Virus record (IMG/VR): IMGVR_UViG_3300023172_000022
Location: 1 to 64,000 of that record
Reading direction: 5' to 3' (one strand)
Source: a virus
Taxonomy: Duplodnaviria > Caudoviricetes
DNA length: 64,000 nt
Positions 19,508-64,000 of the stretch are shown one piece after another. The number at the start of each line of letters is the position of its first letter. Within the stretch, counting starts at the first letter, position 1. The notes beneath the pieces were generated by a model. The model was not told the DNA's origin. It did no database searches and was given only the letters and a program-made list of their open reading frames with translations. Both the position numbers and the translations under genes were made by a program.

Positions 19508-19515
19508 TATTTATA
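19508..19515 (-). promoter_or_regulatory. T4-type late promoter TATAAATA
   Basis: Exact consensus, intergenic, 26 nt upstream of the 19482 start. Confidence 0.8.
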
Positions 19516-19962: not shown

Positions 19963-22900
19963 TTAACTATTAAGTAGTGCAGTAGAAATAAATGTGGTAT
20001 TAACACCAAAACCACCTTGCAAAAATAAAATTCTCATTCCATTTCCGTAAGCATTTGTACTACCCAATCCTCTATAAAGTCTTCTTCTATCATTAGTTCC
20101 TGTTGTAGAAAATCTGTCACTAGAAAGAATAGTATCTTCACCAACTGCTCCAGCATCTACAAATCCAATAAGATCTATTTCCTTACCAGTATAAAGGTAT
20201 CTGTATGAACCTATTCTGGTTGGGAATTGAATTACAAGTTGTCCATCGTCATTTAATGATAATTGCTCCAATGGATTAATAACCGCATGGGAGTCTCTTT
20301 CATTAATACCGGCAAACACATGTCTACCCCAAGGTTTCAATATGTCTTTTTCTCTGACGACAAATCTTCTAAATCGTCCTTGTTCATTTAAATCGAAGGC
20401 CTTAATATCTTCTTCAACAACTTCATCTACAACAAATTCCGAAACATAATTTCCGTCAATATCATAAATTCCATCATATGCAAGAGAATTTGATCTACCA
20501 GTAGTTTCAGTTTTAAAGAACGGTGTCAAATCAGAGTATAATACTGGTGGTTCGCTGGATGCATATATACAATGAACAGGTTGTGTTGGTGATGTAAAAT
20601 CAGGTTCACCAGTGGTTGAATCTACATGCCTTTGAATGCAGAAAAATGCATTTCTACCTTCTTGTGTGTGCGATTCGTGGTCCTTGATATGGAATACCAT
20701 TCCATGATTTGCAATCGTTAATGTATATGTCATTGGATATGAAGCTGCCAGATTTCCAGTTCTACCAGTTCTTCTATAAAATCCTTTTTGTACTCTAACA
20801 TTTGATGTATTATATGGCGTATCATTCAAAAGTTCTGTTGAACTACCCAGTAGATATGAATCTTCATACCTGTATTCACCATCATCTAAAATGCCATTGG
20901 TTACAGTTCCAGTACCAACTGTATAAGTTACACTATATGAATTGCTACTAGTCCAAACGTCTGGGACGCTATTGAAACCATCAACCGTCGAATGATAAAG
21001 TCCAACTCGTCCAGCGTCTGTGTTCATTTTATTTGCCAAGACACCTTTTAACAAATCTCTTTGTGAATATGGATTATTTTTATGAACAGTTGCGCCAAGA
21101 TATCCTTGATACTGCGGTCTCATACCACCCATGAATCCAGGCTCTCTTTTTGTAATTTTTTGAGTTATATCACTATTGGCTGCAACTTCAGTAACATCAC
21201 CATTTGATAATAATTGATATTCTGTTGCGGCATGAACTGTTAAATACTCAAACTGAGAGCCTTTACCAGTCTGCCCCGAACCAACCTGCAAAAAGCCTTC
21301 ATTAATATATGGAGATGTTTCTGTAAGTTCTTCTCCTCTACTAACATCAAGTCTAAGTCGCCAAGGTTGCGAATTATCAACTCCACCCAAGTTGGTTCTT
21401 TCGTCTGTTTCAAATACAAGTGGGCCCATACTTCTATCGGTAATATATTCAAAAGTATCTATTTCTAAATCCGAAGTATGTGTTTCAAATTGTTTATATG
21501 ATGTATTTCCTAGATTGATTCCGTTATGAGTAGAATTTGGATGTAATTGTCTAAGATTAAAATCAAAAGAAACTTCTGGACCAACAGGTCGTGTTAATCT
21601 AGTACTACTATTGTCATCATCCAATACCAAACTATGATAACTCACTGGATAATTACATGAAGTTGCCCTATCCGCACCAACAGATACGCCCATAGATCCC
21701 TTGCGAACTGGATTGGCCAATGTTCCAAGATCTCTTGCAAGTGGGAAAGACATTCTAATTCTTCCAACATTAGAAAGAGCTGCGGCCCGTGTCTCGGTTA
21801 AAGTAAAATTTATAGGTCCATTATTGCCTGTGTCATCAAAGTCTGTTTCTTCTTCAACTTCTAAAGTTACAGAAAATCTAGCTGCGTCTGGAATGTCCCA
21901 AGTATACATTGAATTCATCCATTCGTCGTCGCGGTTTTTACTTTGAGTATACCAAGCAAGAGGACTTACCATTTTTATTGGTGGCGGCGAATTAGGATCT
22001 TGAGAATATTCAAAAGTAGGATCAAATTTAAGTCTTAAAACATTTGCCATTGCCAAAGCGTCCTTTTGATAACTGAGGCGAATTTCCCCGTCCACCCTAT
22101 TTGAGATTGCATCAATTTCCGTATCCGCGCTGGCTGCCCCATTGTATGCAATTTTTGGAGTATTTGCCAAATTAACATAGTTAGGGTCTGTTGTTCCATC
22201 AAGGAACGTTGTTGCTGTATGATTTGTAATTGGCGTGATTGTGTTCAAGGAACCGTTTGCCGCCATAAGATCTTGATTACCATTATAATAATCTATAAGT
22301 TTATTACCAAAAATTGTTCCATCATTGTAAATCCAATAATTTTCTCCGTCTTGATCAGCAGTTCTTGTAGTAATATTTGACGGAGCATTAAACAATCCCC
22401 ATGCTCTGTCATCTCCGTTTGATGATAGATACTTCTGATATTTTGTGTTCCTGATCATATATGCCGATGAATCTTCATTATATTCTATTCTCAATTCAGT
22501 ACCAACAATATCTATATTCATGTATTTTTGAGTATAAGGACAGTCAGATGATTCTAAAAACGCTTCTAGATCTACCAAAAGAGTACTCGCAGTGCTATAT
22601 GGTTTTTTCGCTTCAAAAGAATAAGAAATGTCAATTGTATTTTCCCAAGGAGTGTCAGAATCTTCATCAACAAGCCCTGTTAAATTTATAGTAAATATGT
22701 CACCTTTATTTGCTCCAGTGAATCCACTAACATTGACACTATGAACATAGCCAGGGATAGAATCTGTATAGTGATAATTGTAGAAGTTTAAGTCAGCATT
22801 CGTTACTTGCCAATTATAATAGCCATAGTAATAGCTATAACTTTGTATTGCTCCAATCTGATAATGACAATTTCTTACTGAAACGTCCCTGTTCAGAAAG

Positions 22901-24504
22901 AACATATCAGCGGCTTTATCTTTTGTTATATCATTATCCAAGTTTGGCCATCCATTTCCAGATGGGAATTTATCCCAAGGGCCAAAAGTAACCGAGTACC
23001 CATGAGTTCTGAAGGGATCATAGTGGAACGTTGTGTTACTCGCCCCCATCGTCTGTGTGACAAATCCTGTCGGGTGATTAGTTGCTATCGCATTGGTTGT
23101 TCCATCTTCTGGACTTTCTTTGTACCCCCTTGATGAGTTTTGGACGGCTTCCCTGCGCGAGGCGTGATATTTTAAAGATATTGCAGTATCCAAAGCAGCT
23201 GCAGTCGCTGCCGCTAAATCAGTATAAGTATACGCTCGATTCAAAGAGGGACTGCTGCCGCCGAATAAACTTCCCCTTCTTGCCGTTGATGAAGATTGTC
23301 CCCTACCGTGTTCTATAATAGTATTTACAAAGGAATATGTTAGTCCAGATAAAAGAGTTCTTGCGGTTCTTGTGAAAGTCAGCCCCCAATCAATAGATTG
23401 CGTTGAAGCTTCAAAATTTGTTACTGTTCCTTCTGGTATCCCACCATCTGGACTGAGAGATCTGAAAACACCACTAACTTTACTCAAAACATTACTTTTA
23501 AGTAGATGATTGTGAACCTCTTGAGCAAAATCTTCTATATCTTCAGCGACAGCTATAAAAGAAACACTTTCGCTTAATGTAGTGTTATCTGACAATTTTG
23601 TTCCAGTAAATGTTAGAGTATATTGATCGTCAGGCTGTACTCTGTCTGCCCCAGCTGCAAATTCAATATTGAAAACGCCTTGAAATGTTTCATTCTCTGT
23701 TACATCAGCAGGGAAAAACTGTTCACCTTTATATGTCGTTATCCAAAAATGATGAATAATCGCCCCAGAAGGTTTTCTTTCTTCTTTGTAGTGCCTTAAA
23801 TTACCTTCTGTATCAATACCAGAAGCTCGATCTGGAAATGCAACTACATTTCTTGCTGGGTTTGTTAGTAATCTTTTAATTTTATTAAATTCATTTTCAT
23901 AAACAAGTTGTGACAGTCTAGGCAACCCAATATAACCTTGTTGACTAGTCGCTGTTGTTTGGATTGCAACATTTGGAGGAATTCTCTTTAACCAATTTCC
24001 ATCTGCATCTCTATTATCGGGATGTGGATTCAAATATGAAAATAATTCGGCGTTTGGACCAAGAAATTTTGTCTTTTCCATCGGTGACGCCCATGCGGTG
24101 GAGTTCGACGATTGAGGTAACTGCATAGCTATAAAATCATTCCAAGTAGGACTTGCATAGGTATTGTCTTCTATAACTTTTGGTTTTAACTGGTTTCCGT
24201 CATAGAAATAGTCTGTAATATATGTAACAGGATCACCGGAAGTCCAATCTCCGACGCCAAATGCGCCCTCGTTTGGAGCCGTCGTCGTTGAATCGTAGTA
24301 ATATACAATGAAACTGTCAATATATCTGGTAAGAGCATCATCTGATATAGTAATTTTGACCATATCTGGGCCAACATCTTTAAATCCATTAGAAAGTAAA
24401 TCTGTCGCCAACCTAGATAATAGGGGGGTTTCTTCCTGTCTTTCGGGATCCCAATCATATGCATCTAAATGTAGAATATCTTGTTGTTCTATTGCAACGC
24501 TCAT
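19963..24504 (-). CDS. Large virion protein, four-paralogue family member D (1513 aa)
   Basis: Core motifs WRLRL, ATEYQL, REPG, YPMTY.LT..HG, QRHVD, PVHCIY, RFVVREKDILKPW, DSHAVINP.EQL and GNGMR. Confidence 0.75.
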   Translation of the reverse strand: MSVAIEQQDILHLDAYDWDPERQEETPLLSRLATDLLSNGFKDVGPDMVKITISDDALTRYIDSFIVYYYDSTTTAPNEGAFGVGDWTSGDPVTYITDYFYDGNQLKPKVIEDNTYASPTWNDFIAMQLPQSSNSTAWASPMEKTKFLGPNAELFSYLNPHPDNRDADGNWLKRIPPNVAIQTTATSQQGYIGLPRLSQLVYENEFNKIKRLLTNPARNVVAFPDRASGIDTEGNLRHYKEERKPSGAIIHHFWITTYKGEQFFPADVTENETFQGVFNIEFAAGADRVQPDDQYTLTFTGTKLSDNTTLSESVSFIAVAEDIEDFAQEVHNHLLKSNVLSKVSGVFRSLSPDGGIPEGTVTNFEASTQSIDWGLTFTRTARTLLSGLTYSFVNTIIEHGRGQSSSTARRGSLFGGSSPSLNRAYTYTDLAAATAAALDTAISLKYHASRREAVQNSSRGYKESPEDGTTNAIATNHPTGFVTQTMGASNTTFHYDPFRTHGYSVTFGPWDKFPSGNGWPNLDNDITKDKAADMFFLNRDVSVRNCHYQIGAIQSYSYYYGYYNWQVTNADLNFYNYHYTDSIPGYVHSVNVSGFTGANKGDIFTINLTGLVDEDSDTPWENTIDISYSFEAKKPYSTASTLLVDLEAFLESSDCPYTQKYMNIDIVGTELRIEYNEDSSAYMIRNTKYQKYLSSNGDDRAWGLFNAPSNITTRTADQDGENYWIYNDGTIFGNKLIDYYNGNQDLMAANGSLNTITPITNHTATTFLDGTTDPNYVNLANTPKIAYNGAASADTEIDAISNRVDGEIRLSYQKDALAMANVLRLKFDPTFEYSQDPNSPPPIKMVSPLAWYTQSKNRDDEWMNSMYTWDIPDAARFSVTLEVEEETDFDDTGNNGPINFTLTETRAAALSNVGRIRMSFPLARDLGTLANPVRKGSMGVSVGADRATSCNYPVSYHSLVLDDDNSSTRLTRPVGPEVSFDFNLRQLHPNSTHNGINLGNTSYKQFETHTSDLEIDTFEYITDRSMGPLVFETDERTNLGGVDNSQPWRLRLDVSRGEELTETSPYINEGFLQVGSGQTGKGSQFEYLTVHAATEYQLLSNGDVTEVAANSDITQKITKREPGFMGGMRPQYQGYLGATVHKNNPYSQRDLLKGVLANKMNTDAGRVGLYHSTVDGFNSVPDVWTSSNSYSVTYTVGTGTVTNGILDDGEYRYEDSYLLGSSTELLNDTPYNTSNVRVQKGFYRRTGRTGNLAASYPMTYTLTIANHGMVFHIKDHESHTQEGRNAFFCIQRHVDSTTGEPDFTSPTQPVHCIYASSEPPVLYSDLTPFFKTETTGRSNSLAYDGIYDIDGNYVSEFVVDEVVEEDIKAFDLNEQGRFRRFVVREKDILKPWGRHVFAGINERDSHAVINPLEQLSLNDDGQLVIQFPTRIGSYRYLYTGKEIDLIGFVDAGAVGEDTILSSDRFSTTGTNDRRRLYRGLGSTNAYGNGMRILFLQGGFGVNTTFISTALLNS

Positions 24505-24538
24505 GGCGCAAACTCCTATTTGTTCTATAGTTTCTTAC

Positions 24539-24546
24539 TATTTATA
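24539..24546 (-). promoter_or_regulatory. T4-type late promoter TATAAATA
   Basis: Exact consensus, intergenic, upstream of the 24504 start. Confidence 0.8.
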
Positions 24547-24568
24547 AAAAACAAAAATGTAAAATTAT

Positions 24569-26236
24569 TTAATTTATTTCTAAATTGATATTATCTATTG
24601 TTCCATCTGACATTGTAAAATTTAAATAAGATTCTTGTAAGGTATTTCCTAAAAACAGAGAAACTAATGGTATGTCATCACGTACTCCAGTGTGATTAAC
24701 AAATGGAATAAAATTGTTAAAATCGTCTGCTCCACCAACCGACTGAACAGTTGAAAATGTATATTTATTTGTATTGGTGTCATATACCAAAAATGTTGTA
24801 CCCGAAGTAGGAATATCTGATATATTATGCCCAGTGTAACTAAAATTCTGAAGATTGGTATTTATAGTATTAATTGCTGATTGGTTTGTTAGAATTGTAT
24901 TTCTATTTTCGAGAAGGGTAATGTCTAAATCATATTGTGCAACTTCCAAATCATTTAATATTTCAAAGACATCAGCCAATTGAGAACCAATATTTGTATT
25001 TCCAGCAAGAGCATCTTGTATTTCTTTTAGCGTATCAAAATCTAGACTTACATTATCTAAAAGTATATCGAACCTGTCTTTAATTGCCTTTCTAAAACTT
25101 CCTGTAGTTTGATCATCACCATCTACAATTGCCATCTGAGATTGTAATGTATTAATATCAGATTCCATTGTAGTTATATTGGTATTCAATCCAGACAGAG
25201 CTCCACCAACCAAAGCGTCAAATTCACTTTCTAGAGCATTAAAATCTGCAACATGTGAATTAAAATCATTTACATGATTTGTAAAATCTGTAGATACAAA
25301 GTCACCAAGGGCATCCGCAATTTCTTTAAGGGTATCTCTGTCAGAACTGACACCATCTAATAGAATATCAAATCTGTCTTTTATCGCCTTTCTAAAACTT
25401 CCTGTAGTTTGATCATCACCATCTATAGTATCAATGCGACTAGTTTGTGTGGTTAAATCAGTTTCAACTCTTGCAATTTCAGAGGTTAAATCGGTTTCAA
25501 CTCTTGTAATTTCGGTGTCTAAAATAATATCTGCGTCAAATAAAGAAGTTGCAGAACCAATATAATTAGAGTTGGTATCTGGAGAATAATTTCCATTGAT
25601 TGGTTGAAGTCCAGAACCTAAAACTATAGTATTTCGAAAAGTTTCAAAATCTGTTCTAAAATTTAAGGTGTCTCCTAAAGAATCTGCGATTTCTTTTAAA
25701 GTATCTAACTCTGGTATAACACCATCCAATAATTCATCAAATCTTTGTTTTATTAAATATCTTATCGAATCTGGAGTATTTTCGTCTGCCTCTATTATAT
25801 CTAATCTTGCTTCAATATCTGCTACATCAATAGTAATTGTACCAGCTTTTGTGGAAGGATCATAAGAAAAGTTGACTCTACCTTCAAATATAAATTTTTC
25901 CACACCAACTTCGTTTACTATAACACCGTCTACTGAAGTGCCAGTAGTGATCGAAGAACCAATTTGTTGCCACACATTATTGTGAGAATAGTATAAAAGT
26001 CCCGTCTGAGAATCTTTTGCCAATCTTTTGTCTAAAGGACTAGTATCAAAATCAGAAAGAGTGTCAAACTCAGTATACCTGATTAATTGTAAACTATCTC
26101 TGGCTCCTTGTGCGGTAGAGGCCCCAGTGCCACCTTGTGCAATAGCTACAAAATCTCCGTCAGTAAATTCTGCCAGAATTACTTCGCCGTCACCTTGTAA
26201 TATCGCCTTGATAGGTCTTACTGTATCAAATGCCAC
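24569..26236 (-). CDS. Coiled-coil fibre protein (555 aa, GTG start)
   Basis: GAGGA-6nt-GTG start, GGTGASTAQGAR motif, three RFD.LLD....DTLKEI.D.L repeats, and one ATSL.DAD..LD unit as in 16510-19482. Confidence 0.75.
   Translation of the reverse strand: MAFDTVRPIKAILQGDGEVILAEFTDGDFVAIAQGGTGASTAQGARDSLQLIRYTEFDTLSDFDTSPLDKRLAKDSQTGLLYYSHNNVWQQIGSSITTGTSVDGVIVNEVGVEKFIFEGRVNFSYDPSTKAGTITIDVADIEARLDIIEADENTPDSIRYLIKQRFDELLDGVIPELDTLKEIADSLGDTLNFRTDFETFRNTIVLGSGLQPINGNYSPDTNSNYIGSATSLFDADIILDTEITRVETDLTSEIARVETDLTTQTSRIDTIDGDDQTTGSFRKAIKDRFDILLDGVSSDRDTLKEIADALGDFVSTDFTNHVNDFNSHVADFNALESEFDALVGGALSGLNTNITTMESDINTLQSQMAIVDGDDQTTGSFRKAIKDRFDILLDNVSLDFDTLKEIQDALAGNTNIGSQLADVFEILNDLEVAQYDLDITLLENRNTILTNQSAINTINTNLQNFSYTGHNISDIPTSGTTFLVYDTNTNKYTFSTVQSVGGADDFNNFIPFVNHTGVRDDIPLVSLFLGNTLQESYLNFTMSDGTIDNINLEIN
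25074..25425. repeat. Intragenic direct repeat (about 52 bp, two copies 300 bp apart)
   Basis: gcctttctaaaacttcctgtagtttgatcatcaccatcta at about 25086 and 25386, encoding DGDDQTTGSFRKA. Confidence 0.85.
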
Positions 26237-26258
26237 CGATTATCCTCTCTTTTATTTG

Positions 26259-26266
26259 TATTTATG
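26259..26266 (-). promoter_or_regulatory. Late promoter variant CATAAATA
   Basis: Overlaps the PAAR-gene stop, 23 nt upstream of the 26236 start. Confidence 0.45.
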
Positions 26267-27347
26267 AAACGGCGCCTTCCGAACCTTCACCAATTTGAAC
26301 TACACTACCTCCACTGGATTCTAAATTGATATTAGAAATAAGTGAGTTGTTATTGCTTTGTACGCACGGAACAGGCCGTCTTGCAGCGGACCAACCAGCC
26401 TTTCCGTCTGATGAAGGTCCTCTACTATAATTTCTTATTGTTAAATTATCACTTTGATTCCCGCCGATAATTTCTATTGTGGTATCAGTCTTGTTTCCTG
26501 TCGCAATTCCAACATGTCCCTTTCCAGAATTTTTATAACTTCTCCAAAAAACAATAATGTCACCCCTTTGAATATCATCCCAACCTACTGGAGTGCCATA
26601 TCCTTCATAATTTCTTGCCGTGGCGCTTGCCAGATGTTTATGTCCAGATCTTTTTAGTGTTGCACCAACAAAAACTGCACACCAATGATTATAACCACCA
26701 CTTGGTAAAAATGCATATTGTCCTAAACCAACCTCTTTCCATAACGAAATAATATTTTGATTATTACCCTGTTCTGTCCATCTTCTTGTAGTCATTGCCT
26801 CGTAAGCAACATCAAACGGATTTCTTAATGGCACATCTTCGCAATTTCTAGAAGATAGTTCTTCTACATTCTCATCTTGAATTTCAGCCGTATCCGGCAA
26901 TCCTAAACCACCCTCACTGGGCGGTAATTGTGATATATTACCCCCACCAGAACTTTCTGTATTACTAGGTTGTGAATCTGTAAAGTCTGGATGTGGGATT
27001 GGACTAAATTTAATTTCTGGAAACTTTGGTGGTGTATATTTTTCTGTACTATCTCCGGCGTTTACATTTCCACTTCCAGTTCTTATAAAGGAACCACAAC
27101 TAATTGGGTCCATCTCTCGCGCCACACCTTTTTTATTTACAAAAACTGATCCAGACCCTTTGGAAATATTGCCTGCGTGTGGTGGAACATTGGGACATGC
27201 ATGTGGTTTAAAAATGTCAACCTTTTCTCTTAAAGTTGGTTTTCCATTCGTAATTACATTATTACTACCAGCTGGACAAGTTCTTGGGGGAAAACAACCA
27301 TGTCCTGTGCATGGATCTGTATTTTGTCCTCTACTTACATTTGGCAT
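26262..27347 (-). CDS. PAAR (gp5.4-like) spike-tip protein fused to an NlpC/P60 (TIGR02594-like) peptidoglycan hydrolase
   Basis: N-terminal D.CTGHGCFPP...GS.NV.TNG...H....H...GS.SVFVN...R..DPISCGS....GS.NV.AG is a PAAR domain. C-terminal WCAVFVG..L..SG...S..AR.Y..YG...RGDIIVF.R...GHVG...GGNQSD has catalytic Cys and His intact. Start is ATG 27347 or GTG 27353. Confidence 0.88.
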   Translation of the reverse strand: MPNVSRGQNTDPCTGHGCFPPRTCPAGSNNVITNGKPTLREKVDIFKPHACPNVPPHAGNISKGSGSVFVNKKGVAREMDPISCGSFIRTGSGNVNAGDSTEKYTPPKFPEIKFSPIPHPDFTDSQPSNTESSGGGNISQLPPSEGGLGLPDTAEIQDENVEELSSRNCEDVPLRNPFDVAYEAMTTRRWTEQGNNQNIISLWKEVGLGQYAFLPSGGYNHWCAVFVGATLKRSGHKHLASATARNYEGYGTPVGWDDIQRGDIIVFWRSYKNSGKGHVGIATGNKTDTTIEIIGGNQSDNLTIRNYSRGPSSDGKAGWSAARRPVPCVQSNNNSLISNINLESSGGSVVQIGEGSEGAVS

Positions 27348-30300
27348 AAGCACTATATCCTCTTGTCGTCACCAGTATATCAGTTACTTGTTGATAATAG
27401 GCACTTTCACTATCGGGTCTTATTGCACAATTAAGTAACAATGGTTCTATATTTTCCAACCTTTCCGCTTCTATGGATGATACTGCAACATTACCCAAAC
27501 TCATTTCTAACAATAAAATATCAAATTCTTCTTTAGTCATATTTAGTTGTCCTAAATCATAAAGTTCTTGTAGTTCAACTTTAGAATTTTCCATTTCTGT
27601 TTTGTTTAAATCGTTGTTAAATCTACCATATCCAGCTTCCCTTAATTTTTTAATTTTTTCTGTTCTAGTTAATATCTCGCCTTCCCAATATCCAAGTTGT
27701 GTATCCGGCAAGGTTTGTTCTTCTGGTTTAACTTTATTCGTATGCAACCATAGATCTCTGTCAAAAGAATAATTATTATGAACTTTTAATTCAAAGTTAA
27801 TTTCTTTTTTAAGTCCACCAGTCCCATCTTGTTCAAAATTAAATAATAAGTATTGTCTATCATCTTCTATATTTGTTATATATTTTTGTTCTACAACGAA
27901 ATTTGTATCAGTTATGACCAAATATGAATATGCAGCCAATTGATTGATTTGTTCATTTAGACTGTCTATCTGTTCCTGTAATATTTCTATTAAAACTTGA
28001 TCGGTAGTATTATTCAATTCTTGTTGAATTTCATCTCTTTTATTTGTTGCAACAATTTCTGCCTGAATTGCAGTGAGGTCGTATTCCGATGTTTCAGTAT
28101 ATTGCTCAAAATCAAAGTCAAAATTTCTGTCCACTTCTACCTCAAAAGTCCATACATTTTTTATTACTGGTGATTGATTAGAATTAAAAATAACGGGAAA
28201 TAATTCTGGGCCTGTTGGAGAAGAAGAGATTCTCGCCCTAGAAGTGACTCCTGTTGTGCTGTTATGTTGTTCTACTGTGTCGCCAAAAGAAGGTAAAACT
28301 GCGTCATCTGGTTCTACGATTTGTATTATTCCTCTAGATATAGCACTCGCTAATATTTTATATTTAAATGTTCTAGGAGTTTTCATATCAAAATCTGTCC
28401 AATCCAAATCTATTGGTGGATGATGTCCTTCGTCAGTCACCCAATTTTCTGTCGCATACTTATTTAAAAATATATCCATATCACTGATTTGTCCCGTCAA
28501 TCTACCATCTGTCGTTAATGTCAAACACTCAAGAAGTCTGTTATCACTTAAAAATTCGTAAGACCAAATATATCTACCAGCCTCTATTCCTTTACCATTT
28601 TTTGAACCAGTATTCATATTAAAATTAACAAATTCAAATTCATATAGTGGGTCATCTTCTCCTAAAGTAAGAGTTATTTCATATTTTATTTCTGATGTAC
28701 TCATAGTAGAAGTTTTAATGTATTCCATTGGCACGAAATGATGCCCATAATAAAGTTTTGGTAAATTTACTGCTTCGTGACCATAAGCTTCAGAACCACC
28801 AGACTTTATTCTGCCTATTGATGATTGAATTTTCATTGGTTCAAAATTTGGCAAACTTTTTACATTGTGATAATAGGTTTGTCCTACAAACAAATCAAAA
28901 ACAAAAAATGGAGTTGACTCATATACAACTTGATTACCACTATATTTGCCGGAAGATTTTCCAAAAACTACAAAATCTGAAATTTGTGCAGTTGAAAATC
29001 TCTGTCCAAATTTTGGATATTGCGATTGAACACTTTCGTATTTTGCTTTTTGTATTGGGTATTGAGATTGTATGCCTTCATATGTTGGTTTCTGAACTGG
29101 ATATTGAGATTGTATGCCTTCATATGTTGGTTTCTGAACTGGATATTGAGATTGTATGCCTTCATATGTTGGTTTCTGAACTGGATAATGAGATTCAATA
29201 CCTTTCAAAGATGCTCTGAAAACCTCTTCTACCATTTTAAACTTAAATATATTAATGTCAGTGTATTGTGTTGGTAAATTTACATAACTTTCATCATTAA
29301 CAAAATAAGAGTATGGTTGTGTATAAACGGCAGGAACCATATTTTCATTTTGAGTCATATTATCCAAATCTAAGAAGAAAAGTTTGTGTAAGAATGTTTT
29401 TTCTTCTTCCTCTTTTAGATATGGACTATAATCTACTTCATATTCATTTAGTTTAGAAAATTGTAAATTTTCTTCAAAGGTTTTATCTGTAGGCCCGACA
29501 ATATAATCCATTTTTACATGCAGCGGATTAAATCTATGAATTCCACTTATAGGTACAAAAGTTTTGTCTGGTGGGCCAATAACCATTGGTTGTATGTAAG
29601 TTGTCTTGGTGGATTCTCTTATTTGAATTAAACCACTATCACCTTGTATTATGAGATCTTTCCCAGAATCAAATCCTGAGTCAATTATTTCGTGCAAGTC
29701 TGTTTTTCTCAAATAATCATTATCTGAAGAAATAATTAATAAATCATCTCTTTGTAAGAAACTATCTATTTCTTTTATCAGTGTAGAAGATTCTAATACA
29801 GTATCTAATGTTCCTTGGAATAATGGTTCACTAGATTTTAAATAATCACTAAATTTGTTTCCAATAGAAAAGAGTTGAGATTCTAAAGTATATTCTCCAC
29901 TTTTTTCTATTAAAGACTTTGCTCTTTTTAAAAAATCTTTAGGACTGGTGCTCAATAATACAGATGGAACAATTACATCTTCTATTAATTTTGAATTTAA
30001 TTTTTCATTTATTGTGAATATTGATAAATTTTCTTCAATATAATTGGATGCAGCAACAACAACATCGATAAGGCCATCGGCACCTATAGTTCTTAATTTA
30101 TTTAAGGAATTTATTAATACTTCGGAATCGTTACCATACTTAGTAAGACTTTCGATTATTTGTCTATAATATTGTTTAGCGTCATTATAAGATAATGTAC
30201 CTACATTACTGAAAAACCCCTTGTCTTTTCTGAAAATTTGTTTTTCCAACATAGGCAGGAAAACTTCAAAGAAACTATTATCATCAGAAACTGAATTCAA

Positions 30301-30579
30301 AGAATTTAATAGTTCAGTTGCTAAATACTCTGTTTGGAATGATTTTCCGATTGATAGTATTTCGTAATCATTACTAACTGTTCCGACAAATGTTGAATCT
30401 TCGGGCGTAGATTGGATAGAATAAATTGACTCAATATAAGTTGAATTAGAAACATTATTTTCAAAAAATTGACTATATATTTGCACATCAACTTCAGATT
30501 TTGATGTATATATTATGTTGTCAAAGAAAATGGTCTTAGCTTTTACTCTAATTCCATTACTGCCTATAATCTGAGTCAT
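27331..30579 (-). CDS. Large hypothetical virion protein (1082 aa) with a 14-aa tandem array and an Ig-like C-terminal region (possibly gp5.1-like)
   Basis: GIQSQYPVQKPTYE array and LTLTTDGRLTG...RTFKYKI...LKVHNNYS. Overlaps the PAAR gene start. Confidence 0.6.
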   Translation of the reverse strand: MTQIIGSNGIRVKAKTIFFDNIIYTSKSEVDVQIYSQFFENNVSNSTYIESIYSIQSTPEDSTFVGTVSNDYEILSIGKSFQTEYLATELLNSLNSVSDDNSFFEVFLPMLEKQIFRKDKGFFSNVGTLSYNDAKQYYRQIIESLTKYGNDSEVLINSLNKLRTIGADGLIDVVVAASNYIEENLSIFTINEKLNSKLIEDVIVPSVLLSTSPKDFLKRAKSLIEKSGEYTLESQLFSIGNKFSDYLKSSEPLFQGTLDTVLESSTLIKEIDSFLQRDDLLIISSDNDYLRKTDLHEIIDSGFDSGKDLIIQGDSGLIQIRESTKTTYIQPMVIGPPDKTFVPISGIHRFNPLHVKMDYIVGPTDKTFEENLQFSKLNEYEVDYSPYLKEEEEKTFLHKLFFLDLDNMTQNENMVPAVYTQPYSYFVNDESYVNLPTQYTDINIFKFKMVEEVFRASLKGIESHYPVQKPTYEGIQSQYPVQKPTYEGIQSQYPVQKPTYEGIQSQYPIQKAKYESVQSQYPKFGQRFSTAQISDFVVFGKSSGKYSGNQVVYESTPFFVFDLFVGQTYYHNVKSLPNFEPMKIQSSIGRIKSGGSEAYGHEAVNLPKLYYGHHFVPMEYIKTSTMSTSEIKYEITLTLGEDDPLYEFEFVNFNMNTGSKNGKGIEAGRYIWSYEFLSDNRLLECLTLTTDGRLTGQISDMDIFLNKYATENWVTDEGHHPPIDLDWTDFDMKTPRTFKYKILASAISRGIIQIVEPDDAVLPSFGDTVEQHNSTTGVTSRARISSSPTGPELFPVIFNSNQSPVIKNVWTFEVEVDRNFDFDFEQYTETSEYDLTAIQAEIVATNKRDEIQQELNNTTDQVLIEILQEQIDSLNEQINQLAAYSYLVITDTNFVVEQKYITNIEDDRQYLLFNFEQDGTGGLKKEINFELKVHNNYSFDRDLWLHTNKVKPEEQTLPDTQLGYWEGEILTRTEKIKKLREAGYGRFNNDLNKTEMENSKVELQELYDLGQLNMTKEEFDILLLEMSLGNVAVSSIEAERLENIEPLLLNCAIRPDSESAYYQQVTDILVTTRGYSAYAKCK
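29015..29205. repeat. In-frame 42-bp tandem repeat (about 4.5 units; three periods identical at nucleotide level)
   Basis: Unit ggatattgagattgtatgccttcatatgttggtttctgaact, encoding GIQSQYPVQKPTYE. Confidence 0.95.
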
Positions 30580-30581
30580 TT

Positions 30582-32633
30582 TTACAACTTCATACTTCTG
30601 TTGATGCCATTTCTATCGATAAATGGGCCTATAACGCTATTTAGTCCTGTAATTTCACCCAATATTGTTACTGGTCTTAAATGATAATAAGTTAAAGTTC
30701 CTCCATGTAATCTTATAACCCCCTTAGATATTCCACCACCAACTAAACTATCGTCAGAACCTATTCCTTGTTCACCAAGATTATCCTCTCCAACATTTCC
30801 TATAATAGACTCTTCTTCTCTGTCATCTTGACCGACATTGGGTGTTACTGTGTCATCTGTGGTGTCGTCTTGTCCCACATTAGGAGTTACAGTGTCATCT
30901 GTAGTATCATCTTGGCCTAAGTTTGTTGTAATGGCATCATCTGTGGTGTCGTCTTGTCCCACATTAGGAGTTACAGTGTCATCTGTAGTATCATCTTGGC
31001 CTAAGTTTGTTGTAATGGCATCATCTGTGGTGTCGTCTTGTCCCACATTAGGAGTTACAGTGTCATCTGTAGTATCATCTTGGCCTACTGATGGTGTCGC
31101 CACTTCGTCAGTTGCATCTTCTTCATTAATTGTAGTAGAGATTGTAGAATCTATTAAGTCACTAGAGTCTAAATTTGGTGTTAAGACAACATCTTCTAGT
31201 TCGTCAGTACTAATATTTGGTAATGTAGTTGCAAACTCTCTAACTAGTCTTTCTAAAACTTCGATTGACTCGTCTGTCGTAAGTCTATTTAATTCTTCTA
31301 TAATATCAGGTGTTATAAGATCAAGTTGTTTTAATTCATTTATTAAATCTTCTTCAGTAAGATTTTTTTCTCTCAATTCTTCTACTAAAACTTCAGCAAC
31401 AATTGTTTTTTCTAACAACTCTTCGTCTTGTTTTAAAAACTCTAAAACCTGTTTTTGTAGTTCTTCTCTTAGAGAATCTTCTGTTTTTATTAGTTCTTGA
31501 CCGACAAGTTCCTCTACAAATTCTCCTATATTTGTATCTAATAAAAATTCTCTAACTGTAAGTTCGTTTAAATTTATTTCATTAATATTAGATTTTTCTA
31601 ATTCTTCAAAGAAGAATTGTCCAAAAGTCTGTTCAACTAATGTTAATTCTTCTTTTTCTAAATTGCCCAACTCTACAATGTCGGTTTCTTCTGTGACAAG
31701 TTTTTCTATGATAGAAAGAACTTCCCTATCAATAAATGAATCTAAAACATTTACTGCTGCCTTTTCTAATTCTTCTATAAAAATACTTTGTTTAGTTTCT
31801 ATTATATCTGCTATTTCGTTTATTGCAGTTTCTTTGAATTCAGATACAATATTATCTATAATTTGTTCTGGTAAATCTTTTACAAAATCTCTTAAAACAT
31901 CATCCGATAAGATTGCAGTTTTTATTTCTTCTTCTACTAAAGAAGTTTCTATTATCTCAGCGAGAGCCTCTGTGCTTATAAGTTCTGTAAGTTCTGTGAC
32001 TCTTGTTTGATTATCAAATAAATCTGAAATATCTCTAGTGCTTATAAGATCAGACTCAGATTCTGCAACAACGGCCTTTACCGACTGTGTTATAGACTCT
32101 ATCAAACTTGTTTTTATTTTTGCAGCGACATCAGCTATTGTTTCTGTGCTGGGTAATGTATCTGCAACTTCAGTTTCTGGTGCGGGTTCTTGTGATAATT
32201 GAGAATCTGCGACTTGATCTTCTGGCACTTCAACCTGAACTATGACAACGGGCAAAGTTTCTCTTACCTGTTCGTAACTTTCTGAATCGGATGATAATGT
32301 AGAAGATACTTCTGTGGGCAAACTTGCAGTATTAAATAAAGAAACGTGCCATTCCATTGCAATTGCGCCGGCGACAGTATAGTTATAAACTGAAGTTTGA
32401 TCGATTGTTGGATTTGTTACTTTTAGTTGAATAGTGTCACCATTATTAAATGATGCAGAATTTCCAACATCAATCCCATTTTTAATAATGGTTCCAGTGT
32501 TAAAAGTAACATTAACTGGTTGTGAACTTAAATCTGTAACAGTTACTATTTCTGAAAAGAGCTCACTTGGACTCGTGAGTCCAGAGCTCATTTCAACATA
32601 GTCTGGTATAAAGAAACTGTCTATGAGTGCCAT
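30582..32633 (-). CDS. Very acidic (E/D-rich) hypothetical protein (683 aa) with a 14-aa tandem array
   Basis: Ig-like N-terminus, an E/L/I-rich helical middle, and TPNVGQDDTTDDTV repeats. Confidence 0.65.
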   Translation of the reverse strand: MALIDSFFIPDYVEMSSGLTSPSELFSEIVTVTDLSSQPVNVTFNTGTIIKNGIDVGNSASFNNGDTIQLKVTNPTIDQTSVYNYTVAGAIAMEWHVSLFNTASLPTEVSSTLSSDSESYEQVRETLPVVIVQVEVPEDQVADSQLSQEPAPETEVADTLPSTETIADVAAKIKTSLIESITQSVKAVVAESESDLISTRDISDLFDNQTRVTELTELISTEALAEIIETSLVEEEIKTAILSDDVLRDFVKDLPEQIIDNIVSEFKETAINEIADIIETKQSIFIEELEKAAVNVLDSFIDREVLSIIEKLVTEETDIVELGNLEKEELTLVEQTFGQFFFEELEKSNINEINLNELTVREFLLDTNIGEFVEELVGQELIKTEDSLREELQKQVLEFLKQDEELLEKTIVAEVLVEELREKNLTEEDLINELKQLDLITPDIIEELNRLTTDESIEVLERLVREFATTLPNISTDELEDVVLTPNLDSSDLIDSTISTTINEEDATDEVATPSVGQDDTTDDTVTPNVGQDDTTDDAITTNLGQDDTTDDTVTPNVGQDDTTDDAITTNLGQDDTTDDTVTPNVGQDDTTDDTVTPNVGQDDREEESIIGNVGEDNLGEQGIGSDDSLVGGGISKGVIRLHGGTLTYYHLRPVTILGEITGLNSVIGPFIDRNGINRSMKL
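30780..31225. repeat. In-frame 42-bp tandem array (about 11 degenerate 14-aa units) with a perfect 84-bp higher-order repeat at 30853-31087
   Basis: tcatctgtggtgtcgtcttgtcccacattaggagttacagtgtcatctgtagtatcatcttggcctaagtttgttgtaatggca repeated about 2.8 times. Confidence 0.95.
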
Positions 32634-35700: not shown

Positions 35701-36290
35701 AATAAACTACCATCTACATAAATTTCTAAATCTCTAGGATCAGATATAGTCGAAACTACAGTAAATATAGTTGTTCCGAGTTTTCTAACATTTATTGTTG
35801 AACCTACTGATGGAGCTGTATTAAATGTAATTTCATTATTACTAACACCACCAATTGTATAATCTGTGCCATGAGTTTGCAAAGAACCATCAATAGAAAC
35901 TTGGTCGGTTGTTGATGGAGTAAAATTCGTCACCGTAAAATTAGTTATGGTTCCATCACCAGAAAAAGCTTGCGTCAGATCACCAACACCATCAAAAGAC
36001 TCTCTGACAGCAGGAGATGGAGGCGTGTAATAAAACTGCCCTCCATTACTAAAACTATTGTCTCCTTCTAAATTATCTAGTAACAATATCTGACCTGTCT
36101 GATCGATCTTTGCTCGAATTACCAAAGTATTTGTTAATTCCGTATCTACATGTCTAGAAAGTGAATATGATGTTGTAGAACCATCACTTACAAAGTATTC
36201 TCTAAACATGGGTTGTTGCATAGAAATGAGTTCTATTCTAGATATGGAAAACCCACTGCTTTTGTATTTTGAGTCTAAACTATTAGCCAT
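32703..36290 (-). CDS. Large virion protein, four-paralogue family member C (1195 aa)
   Basis: Core motifs QKWRL, RRPGELCD, GWFRR, YRLTVTDHG, DQDDDYAWFVIQRHV, PIHCVYS, REQDVLKPW and GNGMR, plus nested GDG..T.F/DY/ITF..AP domains. Confidence 0.75.
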   Translation of the reverse strand: MANSLDSKYKSSGFSISRIELISMQQPMFREYFVSDGSTTSYSLSRHVDTELTNTLVIRAKIDQTGQILLLDNLEGDNSFSNGGQFYYTPPSPAVRESFDGVGDLTQAFSGDGTITNFTVTNFTPSTTDQVSIDGSLQTHGTDYTIGGVSNNEITFNTAPSVGSTINVRKLGTTIFTVVSTISDPRDLEIYVDGSLLQINNDYLVNGQNITFYNTPSTGTDNIIIIVPSVAPYGSITLNNASIPNPNDRLILDYFTKTQYYSNYEDGVLKQLAMDLTLHPYANHYTYDWSDSKMKNGTIVVSYASNQTNSSVNVKITGTDAVFSSDDLQKRIIQEYGRGEVRIESISNDGTIAFGTILTPFTQDENNLEPDMISGVRYAANSWRMSIPEEEIEQQSFNIIYPYSSPDANSYPVIDENGQQNQSDVMNCIRRIGSRFIVESEKGVDILSSKKDIIPSGITVPTDLVASSAWLEGRAPQKWRLMFEYNEQKDEINVFAGTKYQISDNGTLSSTQGRDGIKGPTFRRPGELCDIFYDSSDGFRKSRSGWFRRAGKDDPLITPTYPVKYRLTVTDHGLGLFMWDHASVDQDDDYAWFVIQRHVNNTSGKIELEEGKSPIHCVYSPSKRAVEASNTNIALYQNWSKTVNSITGQVNLQYDQLGDIYDIDGRQLKSTDRVVSSIITDKDRIFATTTGTTFGNFNNYLVANTNLSEVGSLTSPGFTVGTDYITAAHVSDFPTIATTKDPTISSQAPDIAYLGVDYTELVNFNTAYQWGLGPAGQGLEIESIYLARWHSEYKFQDYVELERGVHWELEVQAIDNFTNTFRGETYPVKRFGIKFLHPVENPVNNSLRQLVIHEINDTDTDWSYDPLNTSGGTIARQKPKVLVNYRWKGAGYQNRYINPVGRSGDGTGPLENTSLLSVYVSNVEINAAVAPEEYIVDSDGVPQFTQIPVFGNEQNVYAYMLQTDHLYVRDEIANSQVVTIAYENYAIDPNATSQYLIELPSDPDIPASWMNPHNESKAIYRFCIREQDVLKPWDKHVSAIIPQVDSPAIINPYEQLALTDRKTLVTFFPTPMTSQRYIYPEDEMDLICYTSADASTMGGFVNVGANNAKYDLDSVQSSSVTGDTAGTGTNSSEELNFRFPYTWHTGTNSATTSSERTYLGMHSTLPYGNGMRIMLLVRGGSIRPEYSDFIPPDVS

Positions 36291-36318: not shown

Positions 36319-36326
36319 TATTTATT
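36319..36326 (-). promoter_or_regulatory. Late promoter variant AATAAATA
   Basis: Overlaps the upstream stop, about 30 nt before the 36290 start. Confidence 0.45.
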
Positions 36327-41017: not shown

Positions 41018-41025
41018 TATTTATA
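41018..41025 (-). promoter_or_regulatory. T4-type late promoter TATAAATA
   Basis: Exact consensus, intergenic, upstream of 40980. Confidence 0.8.
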
Positions 41026-55753: not shown

Positions 55754-55761
55754 TATTTATA
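55754..55761 (-). promoter_or_regulatory. T4-type late promoter TATAAATA
   Basis: Exact consensus, intergenic, upstream of gp8. Confidence 0.8.
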
Positions 55762-63012: not shown

Positions 63013-64000
63013 CTATGGATTTAAATCTATTTTTGGTGCTTTGATTGTGTGGTTGCCACCGGAAGTTATATCTATTTTGCCACCGACACCTGTAGTTGAT
63101 TTTTTACCAACTACTAAATTAAAGTTTCCTTCGACCACTATAGTTAAATTACCACCAACATGTAAATTTTTATTACCCATAACTAAATCAAAACCATCTC
63201 CAACTGTTTTAGAAACCTTTTTCCCGTCTGGATGATATTCTTCAAAAGAACCAGATCTGTGATAAGTATGAATTCTTTCTGCGCCTGGAGTATCGTCAAT
63301 TTCTAATACATGGCCTGTAGGAGTCCTTATCGCTTGATTATATGGATAAACGGCGGCATAAGGAGATTCTGGCTCAGTAAATTTAGAATTACTGACAAGT
63401 TCATTTTTTGTTTCTGAACATTCGGATTGTGGTTCATCCGGCAAACCACATCTTGTGGGCAAATCAGAATCTGCTGTTTGCGTAGGAGTTTGTGAACTAT
63501 TAGTACTATTAACAGTACGATTGCCAGATTGATTATTAGTATTTACACTTTGACTTATTTCATTAGAAATACTATTCATTGATCTTTGATTTCTTTGATC
63601 AATAACATCATCTGGTGATAACGCTGCAGCTGGGGTTCCTGTTGGGTCAGACAAAAACATCGCCCTCTCTTCCTGTCTTCTAGTTGCCAATGCATCAATA
63701 GTTTGTCCACTTGCCTTATTGTATAGTAACATTTTGTTTGCAATGGTTTCATTGTCTCTTGTACCATTATTAGTCAATTGGTCAAGTCCGCCGGGCCCAA
63801 GATTATACGCAAAGGAAGTTAGAGCATCTCTTTGTCTTTCGTTCCAAGTGTAACCGTATTGTTTTTCTTTTTCCAAAACATATCCTCTATATTTTGCTAT
63901 ATTTTGTGATAATCTAGCTTCGGCCTCTTGCTCATCAATCACTTCGCCCGGATAATTTGCCTTTGTACCATAACCAATTGAGTGTTGTTTATGATCCCAA
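63013..64000 (-). CDS. gp5: Baseplate central spike gp5 with a GH24 lysozyme domain (5'-truncated by the window edge)
   Basis: The frame stays open to the edge (WDHKQHSIGYGT...). DALTSFAYNLG and YNKA.G....L..RR.EE..MF mark the lysozyme. YPYN...GH..E.DDTPG.ERI...H.SG.F.E.HPDG plus a V.GN beta-helix ending KIDLN mark the gp5 C-terminus. Confidence 0.92.
   Translation of the reverse strand, partial: WDHKQHSIGYGTKANYPGEVIDEQEAEARLSQNIAKYRGYVLEKEKQYGYTWNERQRDALTSFAYNLGPGGLDQLTNNGTRDNETIANKMLLYNKASGQTIDALATRRQEERAMFLSDPTGTPAAALSPDDVIDQRNQRSMNSISNEISQSVNTNNQSGNRTVNSTNSSQTPTQTADSDLPTRCGLPDEPQSECSETKNELVSNSKFTEPESPYAAVYPYNQAIRTPTGHVLEIDDTPGAERIHTYHRSGSFEEYHPDGKKVSKTVGDGFDLVMGNKNLHVGGNLTIVVEGNFNLVVGKKSTTGVGGKIDITSGGNHTIKAPKIDLNP

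What the first reader, a model, noticed from the sequence alone, without database searches (positions are those of the whole stretch)
26262..27347. Phage PAAR spike tip fused to an NlpC/P60 peptidoglycan hydrolase, a T6SS-style specialised effector on a virus
Seen: a complete PAAR domain (three His plus Cys metal ligands), a linker of about 70 aa rich in P/S/G/E, and a TIGR02594-like domain with intact WC, GHVG and GGNQ motifs. Established: T4 gp5.4 is a stand-alone tip of about 100 aa, whereas PAAR-enzyme fusions are typical of T6SS effector delivery. Inference: the phage delivers an amidase or endopeptidase on its needle tip in addition to the gp5 muramidase, giving two-enzyme wall penetration. 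This is the strongest candidate for a new system in the window.
Basis: partly seen in the sequence, partly recalled or inferred. Interest (0 to 1): 0.8.

Follow-up and report, generated by a model that had tools for sequence, protein, structure and literature searches.

The report
Phage needle-tip cap carrying a wall-cutting enzyme
An uncultivated marine T4-like phage encodes a single protein that joins the sharp cap of its cell-puncturing needle to a cell-wall-cutting enzyme, an arrangement well known in bacterial type VI secretion weapons but so far described in phages only as a bare cap.

Summary
Window 26262..27347 (minus strand) encodes a 361-aa protein made of a PAAR domain (Pfam 35.5 bits, cut-off 27), a 77-aa P/S/G/E-rich linker and a CHAP/NlpC-P60 cysteine peptidase domain (28.8 bits, cut-off 26). 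The Cys223/His278/GGNQ motifs are invariant in 69 relatives.

It is not an assembly artefact. The identical protein lies on 4 contigs, and 11 of the 150 listed 50%-identity cluster representatives have the same full-length architecture. All relatives with a recorded origin are viral or metagenomic.

The host genome is a 76-kb fragment of a marine T4-like myovirus; its gp6 is 35.5% identical to that of Pelagibacter phage HTVC008M.

The new point is context. In sister phages the same linker+CHAP cassette hangs on the C-terminus of the gp5 needle, next to a stand-alone 100-aa PAAR. In another lineage PAAR-CHAP sits exactly in the gp5.4 slot, after a short enzyme-less gp5. A complex model places the PAAR domain on the gp5 needle tip (0.89 against a best control of 0.02), although similar complexes have been solved.

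Most likely this is a virion spike tip that tethers one peptidoglycan endopeptidase, alongside a lysozyme-bearing gp5. It is a new variant of a known kind. Nothing has been tested experimentally.

The parts
26262..27347 (-). PAAR-linker-CHAP gene, 361 codons plus stop
   Evidence: ORF. Pfam PAAR plus CHAP. The identical protein P0002 lies on 4 contigs.
27054..27347 (-). PAAR spike-tip domain, residues 1-98, with putative metal ligands H16, H49, H57 and C84
   Evidence: The complex model places residues 28-35, 65-72 and 92-100 on the gp5 tip.
26823..27053 (-). Linker, residues 99-175, 47% P/S/G/E. From about residue 137 it is homologous to the linker of gp5-CHAP proteins.
   Evidence: Composition. 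tblastn matches of gp5-CHAP loci start at query residues 137-169. Alignments.
26358..26822 (-). CHAP / NlpC-P60 cysteine peptidase domain, residues 176-330. Catalytic-type C223 and H278, plus the GGNQ motif at 295-298.
   Evidence: Pfam. Invariant columns in 69 sequences. AF2 model with pLDDT 87.2. Foldseek top hits are NlpC/P60 peptidoglycan DL-endopeptidases.
26265..26357 (-). C-terminal tail, residues 331-361. Relatives, including gp5-CHAP proteins, end in a G-G-x-V-T/S/V type motif.
   Evidence: Alignments A1 and A3. Role unknown.
27358..27364 (-). Shine-Dalgarno-like AAGAGGA, 10 nt upstream of the ATG. The gene start overlaps the end of the upstream 1082-aa gene (stop at 27331) by 17 nt.
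   Evidence: Sequence read; ORF ends.
63013..64000 (-). C-terminal part of the long gp5 paralog (504 aa; OB domain, Phage_lysozyme, beta-helix), which runs on to base 64527 of the record. The short gp5 paralog (270 aa, 64560-65372) and a gp27-like gene (65372-66637) lie just outside the window.
   Evidence: ORFs (locus L003). Pfam. PHROGs.

Best explanation
The gene encodes the spike-tip protein of a marine T4-like myovirus.

Its N-terminal PAAR cone (one copy per virion, held together by a His3-Cys metal site) sits on the blunt end of the trimeric gp5 beta-helix and sharpens the needle, as T4 gp5.4 does. The chain leaves the base of the cone next to the needle, so the apex stays free. It continues through a flexible linker of about 77 aa into a Cys-His NlpC/P60-CHAP peptidase.

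When the sheath contracts and the needle passes the outer membrane, this single tethered enzyme reaches the periplasm first and cuts peptide stems or cross-links of the peptidoglycan. The most likely bond is gamma-D-Glu-diamino acid, judged from structural neighbours. The lysozyme domains of the long gp5 paralog cut the glycan strands.

The linker+CHAP+tail unit is a mobile cassette. In related phages it is attached to the C-terminus of gp5 instead.

Shown: the domain architecture, conservation of the catalytic residues, the family, the synteny and the cassette exchange. Inferred: presence in the virion, the capping of gp5 in vivo, the bond cleaved, and the timing.
For: - **Domains and motifs:**
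- **Real gene:** the identical protein is on 4 contigs, and 8 of 27 word-search hits are full length. 11 of the 150 listed representatives match from profile position 5 or earlier to position 295 or later. Five of those were re-scanned and all five show PAAR plus CHAP in Pfam. An ESM Atlas cluster of 62 members is all viral.
- **Tail context:** the gene lies in a colinear block of large structural genes shared with sister contig L004. It is on the same strand as gp5, gp25, gp6 and gp8 and overlaps the upstream gene.
- **The gp5.4 slot:** in L009 the order is gp27, short gp5 (258 aa, no enzyme), PAAR-CHAP, gp25, gp6. In L012 and L019 the order is gp5-CHAP, stand-alone PAAR of 100-102 aa, gp25, gp6.
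- **Sole PAAR:** this record and sister records G001 to G004 have PAAR matches only in the PAAR-CHAP frame. G002 has no Phage_lysozyme match.
- **Complex model** (PAAR residues 1-100 with three copies of short gp5 residues 150-270): score 0.89, best of 3 controls 0.02. The mark was reached by 58 of 80 solved complexes and 2 of 110 mismatched pairs. The runs agree in at least 97% of contacts, and the partner's pLDDT is at least 94. The interface is the last ~10 residues of each gp5 chain against three PAAR segments.
- **Enzyme fold:** AF2 pLDDT 87.2. Best PDB matches are Acd24020, MepS and CwlO. Best viral matches include 'baseplate hub subunit and tail lysozyme'.
Against: - There are no experimental data of any kind.
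- The record is only 38% complete, and the sister records 70-73%, so a stand-alone PAAR elsewhere cannot be excluded.
- In this genome the gene lies about 36 kb from the gp5 locus.
- In the L028/L034 lineage a PAAR-CHAP gene sits among nucleotide-metabolism genes, not tail genes.
- The complex pass may reflect memory of solved PAAR-needle complexes (4jiv, 4jiw, 4ku0, 5iv5). It was run only for the short gp5 paralog, so which paralog is capped is open.
- The PAAR half folded poorly on its own (full-length model pLDDT 49.1).
- The NCBIfam cut-offs for T6SS_PAAR_dom and TIGR02594 are not met.
- A folded 17-kDa domain near the tip could hinder penetration, or might be cleaved off. T4 gp5 itself is processed (recalled).
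Confidence: 0.68

Rival explanations
1. The protein caps the needle, but the CHAP domain is removed by processing, or is only an assembly aid, so the mature virion carries a bare PAAR.
For: The linker is long and low in complexity and modelled with low confidence. T4 gp5 is proteolytically processed during assembly (recalled, not from a call).
Against: The Cys/His/GGNQ residues are invariant in 69 sequences, which argues for a working enzyme. The cassette is kept when it moves between gp5 and PAAR. G002 has no other spike enzyme detected.
Confidence: 0.12
2. The enzyme is delivered on the tip but does not serve genome entry. It might weaken the wall for lysis from without, cut envelope tethers, or act against competing phages or cells.
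For: The genome already has a gp5 lysozyme, so a second enzyme could have another role. The substrate bond is not determined.
Against: The closest structures are peptidoglycan endopeptidases. In G002-type phages it would be the only spike enzyme found. The same domain replaces the lysozyme inside gp5 of Vi1-like phages.
Confidence: 0.1
3. It is not a virion protein. It is either a soluble lysin (endolysin-like) that happens to carry a PAAR-like fold, or a T6SS effector gene picked up from a host.
For: PHROG 281 files phage PAARs under 'moron, auxiliary metabolic gene'. Weak endolysin PHROG matches exist. The L028 lineage places the gene outside a tail module.
Against: 0 of 18 relatives found in 185,579 species genomes include the PAAR half. 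The gene sits in the gp5.4 slot in L009. The nearest CHAP relatives are gp5-borne. No T6SS genes were seen in the ORFs scanned.
Confidence: 0.05
4. The fusion is an assembly or gene-calling artefact that joins a PAAR gene to a separate lysin gene.
For: The record is a metagenome-assembled fragment.
Against: There is one uninterrupted frame. The identical protein lies on 4 contigs. The same architecture occurs in 6 firm and 9 probable loci among the 80 kept viral loci and in 11 of 150 listed representatives at 34-55% identity. Synteny is colinear in L004.
Confidence: 0.01

Closest known systems
T4 gp5.4 (PAAR-repeat spike tip; PDB 4ku0, 5iv5)
   Same: PAAR fold with a His3-Cys metal site (passage in PMC12407873; alignment). 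Predicted to sit on the end of the gp5 beta-helix. In lineage L009 the gene occupies the same position, directly after gp5.
   Different: gp5.4 is 97 aa with no further domain (chain length). Here about 260 further residues carry a linker and an enzyme. In this genome the gene lies about 36 kb from gp5.
T6SS specialised PAAR effectors (PAAR with a C-terminal toxin domain)
   Same: One polypeptide joins the tip cone to a C-terminal cargo domain through a linker. The best PDB sequence matches of the PAAR half are T6SS PAARs 4jiw and 4jiv.
   Different: The gene is encoded by a virus in a tail module, not in a T6SS cluster. No cellular genome copy was found (0 of 18). It scores below the NCBIfam T6SS_PAAR_dom cut-off. 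The presumed cargo serves the phage's own entry rather than killing a rival. No immunity gene was looked for or seen.
gp5-CHAP hub proteins of uncultivated marine T4-like phages (P0011-P0013; L011-L023)
   Same: The same linker+CHAP+tail cassette at 42-46% identity, tethered after the needle end. The same clade in the CHAP tree.
   Different: The carrier is the trimeric gp5 (three enzyme copies), and a separate 100-102-aa PAAR follows. Here the carrier is the monomeric PAAR (one copy).
gp5-type 'baseplate hub subunit and tail lysozyme' of Vi1-like phages (e.g. Shigella phage Ag3 orf00084)
   Same: A related CHAP domain, 36% identical over 115 residues, sits on the central spike.
   Different: There the CHAP domain lies in the middle of the 536-aa protein, where T4 has its lysozyme, not at the tip.
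T4 gp5 tail lysozyme, and two-enzyme tail tips such as phi29 gp13 (recalled)
   Same: Virion-borne wall hydrolases that open the peptidoglycan locally during entry. This genome also has a T4-type gp5 with Phage_lysozyme. Two activities on one tail tip have a precedent in phi29 gp13 (recalled; a 'phi29 morphogenesis protein' hit appears at rank 17).
   Different: The enzyme class is a cysteine peptidase rather than a muramidase, and it is attached to the tip cap.

Membership tests
PAAR repeat domain (Pfam PF05488) | Score over Pfam's gathering cut-off | tested here: met
   35.5 bits against 27, residues 26-86.
PAAR repeat domain (Pfam PF05488) | Tetrahedral metal site of three His and one Cys at the cone apex | tested here: met
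   H16, H49, H57 and C84 align with the His/His/His/Cys of 4jiw_D and 4jiv_D. The definition of the site comes from a passage of PMC12407873. Metal binding itself was not tested.
PAAR repeat domain (Pfam PF05488) | Binds the blunt end of a trimeric beta-helical spike | tested here: met
   In silico only. Score 0.89 against a best control of 0.02; the mark was reached by 58 of 80 solved complexes and 2 of 110 mismatched pairs; at least 97% contact agreement; partner pLDDT at least 94. Similar complexes are solved, so this shows likeness, not binding.
T6SS PAAR protein (NCBIfam NF033420, equivalog domain) | Score over the curated cut-off | tested here: not met
   71.4 bits against a cut-off of 124.
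T6SS specialised effector | Encoded in or with a T6SS (VgrG/Hcp/Tss genes) in a cellular genome | tested here: not met
   The neighbours are phage baseplate and structural genes. 0 of 18 relatives in cellular genomes include the PAAR half. That scan used only two CHAP-motif patterns.
T6SS specialised effector | Cognate immunity gene next to the effector | not tested
   No search was made. The downstream gene is a 555-aa fibre-like protein.
CHAP domain (Pfam PF05257) / NlpC-P60 superfamily | Score over the gathering cut-off | tested here: met
   28.8 bits against 26, residues 218-297.
CHAP domain (Pfam PF05257) / NlpC-P60 superfamily | Conserved catalytic Cys and His | tested here: met
   C223 and H278 are invariant in 69 sequences. 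The third polar residue (N297 or Q298) is inferred only.
CHAP domain (Pfam PF05257) / NlpC-P60 superfamily | Papain-like alpha+beta fold | tested here: met
   The model has pLDDT 87.2. Foldseek gives 17 PDB matches at E <= 0.001, all listed ones NlpC/P60-type hydrolases; the best is 7cfl_A at 3.2e-05.
CHAP domain (Pfam PF05257) / NlpC-P60 superfamily | Hydrolysis of peptidoglycan peptide or amide bonds | not testable with these tools
   Needs a muropeptide or zymogram assay.
TIGR02594 family (NCBIfam subfamily) | Score over the curated cut-off | tested here: not met
   52.9 bits against 70.55, covering positions 39-124 of the 132-position profile. Related, but not a member by NCBI's rule.

The most novel reading that the evidence does not exclude
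Marine T4-like phages run the same 'cargo on the spike' logic as type VI secretion systems. A linker+CHAP cassette shuttles between the trimeric needle (gp5, VgrG-like) and the monomeric tip (PAAR). The PAAR-borne form is ancestral in this clade. In lineages such as G002, whose only gp5 lacks any enzyme, the single tip-tethered peptidase is the phage's sole wall-opening tool. In the window's phage, two gp5 paralogs (with and without lysozyme) would give alternative or mixed spikes capped by the same enzyme-bearing tip. This would mean that effector-bearing PAARs are a viral invention, not only a bacterial one.
Probability: 0.3. Interest if true: 0.7.

Novelty: new variant of a known kind. Interest (0 to 1): 0.5.

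Why it matters
Phage PAAR tips are treated as bare sharpening cones. One comparative study states that they are stand-alone, unlike T6SS PAARs (PMC7824862, passage read). A conserved viral family in which the cone carries a wall peptidase, and a cassette that swaps between gp5 and PAAR, narrows the gap between phage tails and T6SS effector delivery. It also suggests how such delivery may have started.

It gives a concrete case for asking how many enzyme copies, and at what position on the needle, a contractile tail needs in order to cross peptidoglycan: one at the tip, three behind it, or three inside gp5.

It also provides a compact natural design for loading a cargo onto a phage or tailocin tip.

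The hosts are uncultivated marine bacteria, so the practical impact is modest until a cultured example is found.

Tried and rejected
- **Near-identity search:** megablast of 24000-31000 against cultured phages found no match. tblastn of the whole protein found 411 records, none covering 80% or more of it. The CHAP part alone found 415 records, also none at 80% or more.
- **Full-length fold:** AF2 with the 8-row alignment gave mean pLDDT 49.1, with the PAAR half unmodelled. I refolded only the CHAP module with 69 rows.
- **Other PAAR proteins:** ten PAAR proteins from the exhaustive search that share only PAAR, or PAAR plus a little linker, carry DUF6402, an NS_2 endonuclease, or nothing recognised. 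They are ordinary T6SS-type proteins and not part of this family.
- **Extended cultured-phage matches:** those in Agrobacterium phage Atu_ph07 and Acidovorax phage ACP17 are short, unannotated frames, not fusions.
- **Late-promoter motif:** TATAAATA gave 10 matches against 9.18 expected, so the count is not enriched. Only the placement of some copies is suggestive.
- **tRNAs:** none in the window.
- **Closed or unavailable:** Shneider et al. 2013 is not held and is cited only through other papers. One literature query failed on a slash in a term and was re-sent in valid form.
- **Not seen:** supplementary files of papers were not consulted. The annotation tables of the pelagimyophage study (PMC7029224) and of the PAAR survey (PMC8651086) could list such fusions without my having seen them.
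- **Not run:** the second gp5 paralog could not be tested in a complex because only one job was allowed. Sequencing-run searches were not used.

Full report
**What is there.** On the minus strand, 26262..27347 is a 361-codon open frame. It starts at an ATG 10 nt after an AAGAGGA, and it overlaps the stop of the upstream 1082-aa gene by 17 nt.

- **PAAR domain.** Pfam finds a PAAR domain at residues 26-86 (35.5 bits, cut-off 27). NCBIfam matches T6SS_PAAR_dom at 71.4 bits, below its cut-off of 124. PHROG 281 (PAAR) matches at E 8.2e-26.
- **Enzyme domain.** Pfam finds a CHAP domain at residues 218-297 (28.8 bits, cut-off 26). TIGR02594 matches at 52.9 bits, below its cut-off of 70.55. PHROG 1259, 'baseplate hub subunit and tail lysozyme', matches residues 178-312.
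- **Metal ligands.** H16, H49, H57 and C84 align with the three His and one Cys of the solved T6SS tips 4jiw and 4jiv. The T4 tip preprint describes this as the metal site of gp5.4 (passages of PMC12407873).
- **Linker.** Residues 99-175 are 47% P/S/G/E.
- **Catalytic motifs.** W222-C223, G277-H278 and G295-G296-N297-Q298 are invariant in an alignment of 69 CHAP modules.

**Not an artefact, and a family.**
- A word-based search of 5.8 billion proteins returned 27 hits. Eight of them are full length (91-100% of the query, 34-100% identity), all from metagenomes. One is an identical protein seen on 4 contigs.
- An exhaustive profile search of 1.84 billion cluster representatives gave 36 hits at E <= 1e-30. 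Among the 150 listed, 11 match from profile position 5 or earlier to position 295 or later.
- Five of those 11 were re-scanned, and all five show both domains in Pfam. Some single-domain scores fall under the cut-off.
- In IMG/VR, 380 stretches encode a relative, and the best 80 were kept. By script and Pfam, 6 loci (L004-L009) are firm PAAR-CHAP genes. Nine more (L026-L034, 326-350 aa) are probable ones: I scanned 3 of these 9 in Pfam, PAAR scored 19.9-29.2 bits, and only L031 was over the cut-off.
- The ESM Atlas has a 62-member all-viral cluster labelled 'hypothetical protein', with CHAP called on 55% and PAAR on 42% of members.
- In one genome for each of 185,579 prokaryote species, 18 relatives were found and none includes the PAAR half. 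That scan used two CHAP-motif patterns, so divergent fusions could be missed.
- Among 50,697 cultured-phage records, none covers 80% or more of the protein.

**The virus.** The record is a 76,301-base linear IMG/VR fragment, 38% complete by CheckV.
- The window carries gp25, gp6 and gp8 homologues and several giant structural genes, all on the minus strand.
- gp6 is closest to that of Pelagibacter phage HTVC008M (35.5% identity), then to T4-like cyanophages.
- Just past the window lie a gp27-like gene, a short gp5 paralog and a long gp5 paralog. The short one is 270 aa, with an OB domain and a beta-helix but no enzyme. The long one is 504 aa, with an OB domain, Phage_lysozyme at E 2.8e-17, and a beta-helix.
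- Sister record G001 (70% complete) has the same pair, 278 and 501 aa. It also has the PAAR-CHAP gene in a colinear block of homologous structural genes.

**The key comparative result.** Proteins P0011-P0013, and the matching ORFs in nine complete loci (L011-L014, L016, L018-L020, L023; 483-503 aa), read as Gp5_OB, beta-helix, linker, then the same CHAP domain at the C-terminus. They are 42-46% identical to the window's CHAP module, and the homology begins inside the linker, at about residue 137.

- In L012 and L019 this gp5-CHAP gene is followed by a stand-alone PAAR of 100-102 aa, then gp25 and gp6.
- In L009 the order is gp27, short enzyme-less gp5 (258 aa), PAAR-CHAP (335 aa), gp25, gp6. 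There the fusion occupies the gp5.4 slot.
- That lineage's 73%-complete record has a single Gp5_OB gene, no Phage_lysozyme match, and no other PAAR.
- In cultured Vi1-like phages a related CHAP domain sits inside gp5, where T4 has its lysozyme.

So the same enzyme is found at three places on the central spike: inside gp5, after the gp5 needle, and after the PAAR cap.

**Tree.** A quick maximum-likelihood tree was built from 69 rows and 156 columns, with SH-aLRT support only and a midpoint root.
- All marine T4-like copies fall in one clade (support 85).
- The window's group of PAAR-borne copies (support 88) and P0014 branch outside a starred clade (95). In that starred clade the L007 PAAR-borne copy is sister to all gp5-borne copies.
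- The L026-L034 PAAR-CHAP genes fall in a different starred clade together with other architectures.
- The PAAR label needs at least 4 changes on the tree.

I read this as at least one swap of carrier within the T4-like clade, plus probably an independent fusion elsewhere. The direction of the swap depends on a root I did not establish.

**Structure and binding.**
- The CHAP module folds with mean pLDDT 87.2 and pTM 0.87.
- Its best solved neighbours are peptidoglycan DL-endopeptidases and autolysins of the NlpC/P60 family. These include 7cfl Acd24020 (E 3.2e-05), MepS and CwlO, with 17 matches at E <= 0.001.
- Its best viral neighbours include a Serratia phage 'baseplate hub subunit and tail lysozyme'.
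- The one complex job paired PAAR residues 1-100 with three copies of short gp5 residues 150-270. The model supports binding but does not show it.
  - The score was 0.89 and the best of 3 controls 0.02. The mark was reached by 58 of 80 solved complexes and 2 of 110 mismatched pairs.
  - The runs agree in at least 97% of contacts, and the partner's pLDDT is at least 94.
  - The interface is the last ~10 residues of each gp5 chain against PAAR residues 28-35, 65-72 and 92-100.
- Because PAAR-needle complexes have been solved (4jiv, 4jiw, 4ku0, 5iv5), this pass shows likeness to them.
- It does suggest that the chain leaves the cone at its base, beside the needle. That would keep the apex free and let the enzyme trail on its linker.
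- The long paralog ends in a very similar tip sequence but was not tested.

**Mechanism proposed.** The PAAR cone caps the gp5 trimer. On sheath contraction the needle crosses the outer membrane. The single linker-tethered Cys-His peptidase reaches the peptidoglycan and cuts peptide stems or cross-links. In this phage the gp5 lysozyme domains cut the glycan as well. Architecture, conservation, synteny and cassette exchange are shown. Virion incorporation, bond specificity and timing are inferred. The main rivals are processing that removes the enzyme before assembly, a role other than entry, and a non-virion role. An assembly artefact is excluded.

**Literature.** Five full-text searches gave no description of a phage PAAR fused to a wall hydrolase.
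- I read passages, not whole papers, of PMC12407873, PMC8651086, PMC7029224, PMC7697616, PMC7824862 and PMC12284385.
- PMC7824862 states that PAAR proteins of jumbo myoviruses are stand-alone and unfused, unlike those of T6SS.
- Supplements were closed, and Shneider et al. 2013 is not held.

**Verdict.** This is a real and conserved virus-only fusion, most likely an enzyme-bearing spike tip. It is a new variant of known kinds (phage tail-associated wall hydrolases; cargo-bearing PAARs), not a new system. Interest is moderate.

Noticed in passing
Record G000 63013-64527 and 64560-65372 (L003:1014-2528 and L003:2561-3373, minus strand). Only 63013-64000 is inside the window.: Two gp5 paralogs lie side by side. 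The 504-aa one has Phage_lysozyme; the 270-aa one has only the OB domain and beta-helix. Both end in a similar ...I(D/E)LNP tip. The same pair occurs in sister record G001 (501 and 278 aa). A T4-type hub holds one gp5 trimer, so alternative or mixed spikes are possible.
   Followed up: partly
window 26265-26357 (-), and the C-termini of gp5-CHAP proteins (alignments A1 and A3): After the CHAP core there are invariant R323, R324 and C328, then a 20-30-aa low-complexity tail. In relatives this tail ends in a G-G-x-V-T/S/V type motif, shared by PAAR-borne and gp5-borne cassettes. Its role is unknown.
   Followed up: no
window 41045-42985, 36325-40980, 32703-36290 and 19963-24504 (all minus strand): Four large ORFs (646-1551 aa) share a C-terminal domain that matches phrog_12249, labelled 'tail sheath', at E 1e-38 to 1e-49. 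They look like a paralogous family of structural or host-recognition proteins rather than sheaths.
   Followed up: no
window about 28970-29200, inside ORF 27331-30579 (-): A tandem peptide repeat of about 14 residues occurs about four times in the 1082-aa protein encoded just upstream of the PAAR-CHAP gene. That protein has no Pfam or PHROG match.
   Followed up: no
L028:9872-10852 and L034:2603-3655 (viral contigs): A more distant PAAR-CHAP lineage (326-350 aa) is encoded between a ribonucleotide reductase small subunit and a 5'-3' deoxyribonucleotidase gene, outside any recognisable tail module. It sits in a separate clade of the CHAP tree.
   Followed up: partly
L089:8229-8528 (Pelagibacter phage HTVC008M, KC465899.1 30815-31114): The 99-aa 'hypothetical protein' AGE60386.1, directly upstream of gp25, matches the PAAR PHROG 281 at E 1.7e-13. 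It is an unannotated spike tip in the closest cultured relative.
   Followed up: partly
window 24539-24546, 19508-19515, 41018-41025 and 55754-55761 (minus strand): Copies of the T4-type late-promoter motif TATAAATA lie 25-45 nt upstream of the starts of large structural genes. 9 of the 10 copies are on the coding strand, although the total count is not above chance. None lies directly upstream of the PAAR-CHAP gene, which would then be co-transcribed from the copy at 41018.
   Followed up: partly
L003:13130-14101 (-), outside the window: A 323-aa protein with many hydrophobic stretches lies next to a 302-aa ORF that I recall as resembling the T4 gp32 single-strand-binding protein. The membrane protein may be a transporter-type auxiliary gene. 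Neither was scanned.
   Followed up: no
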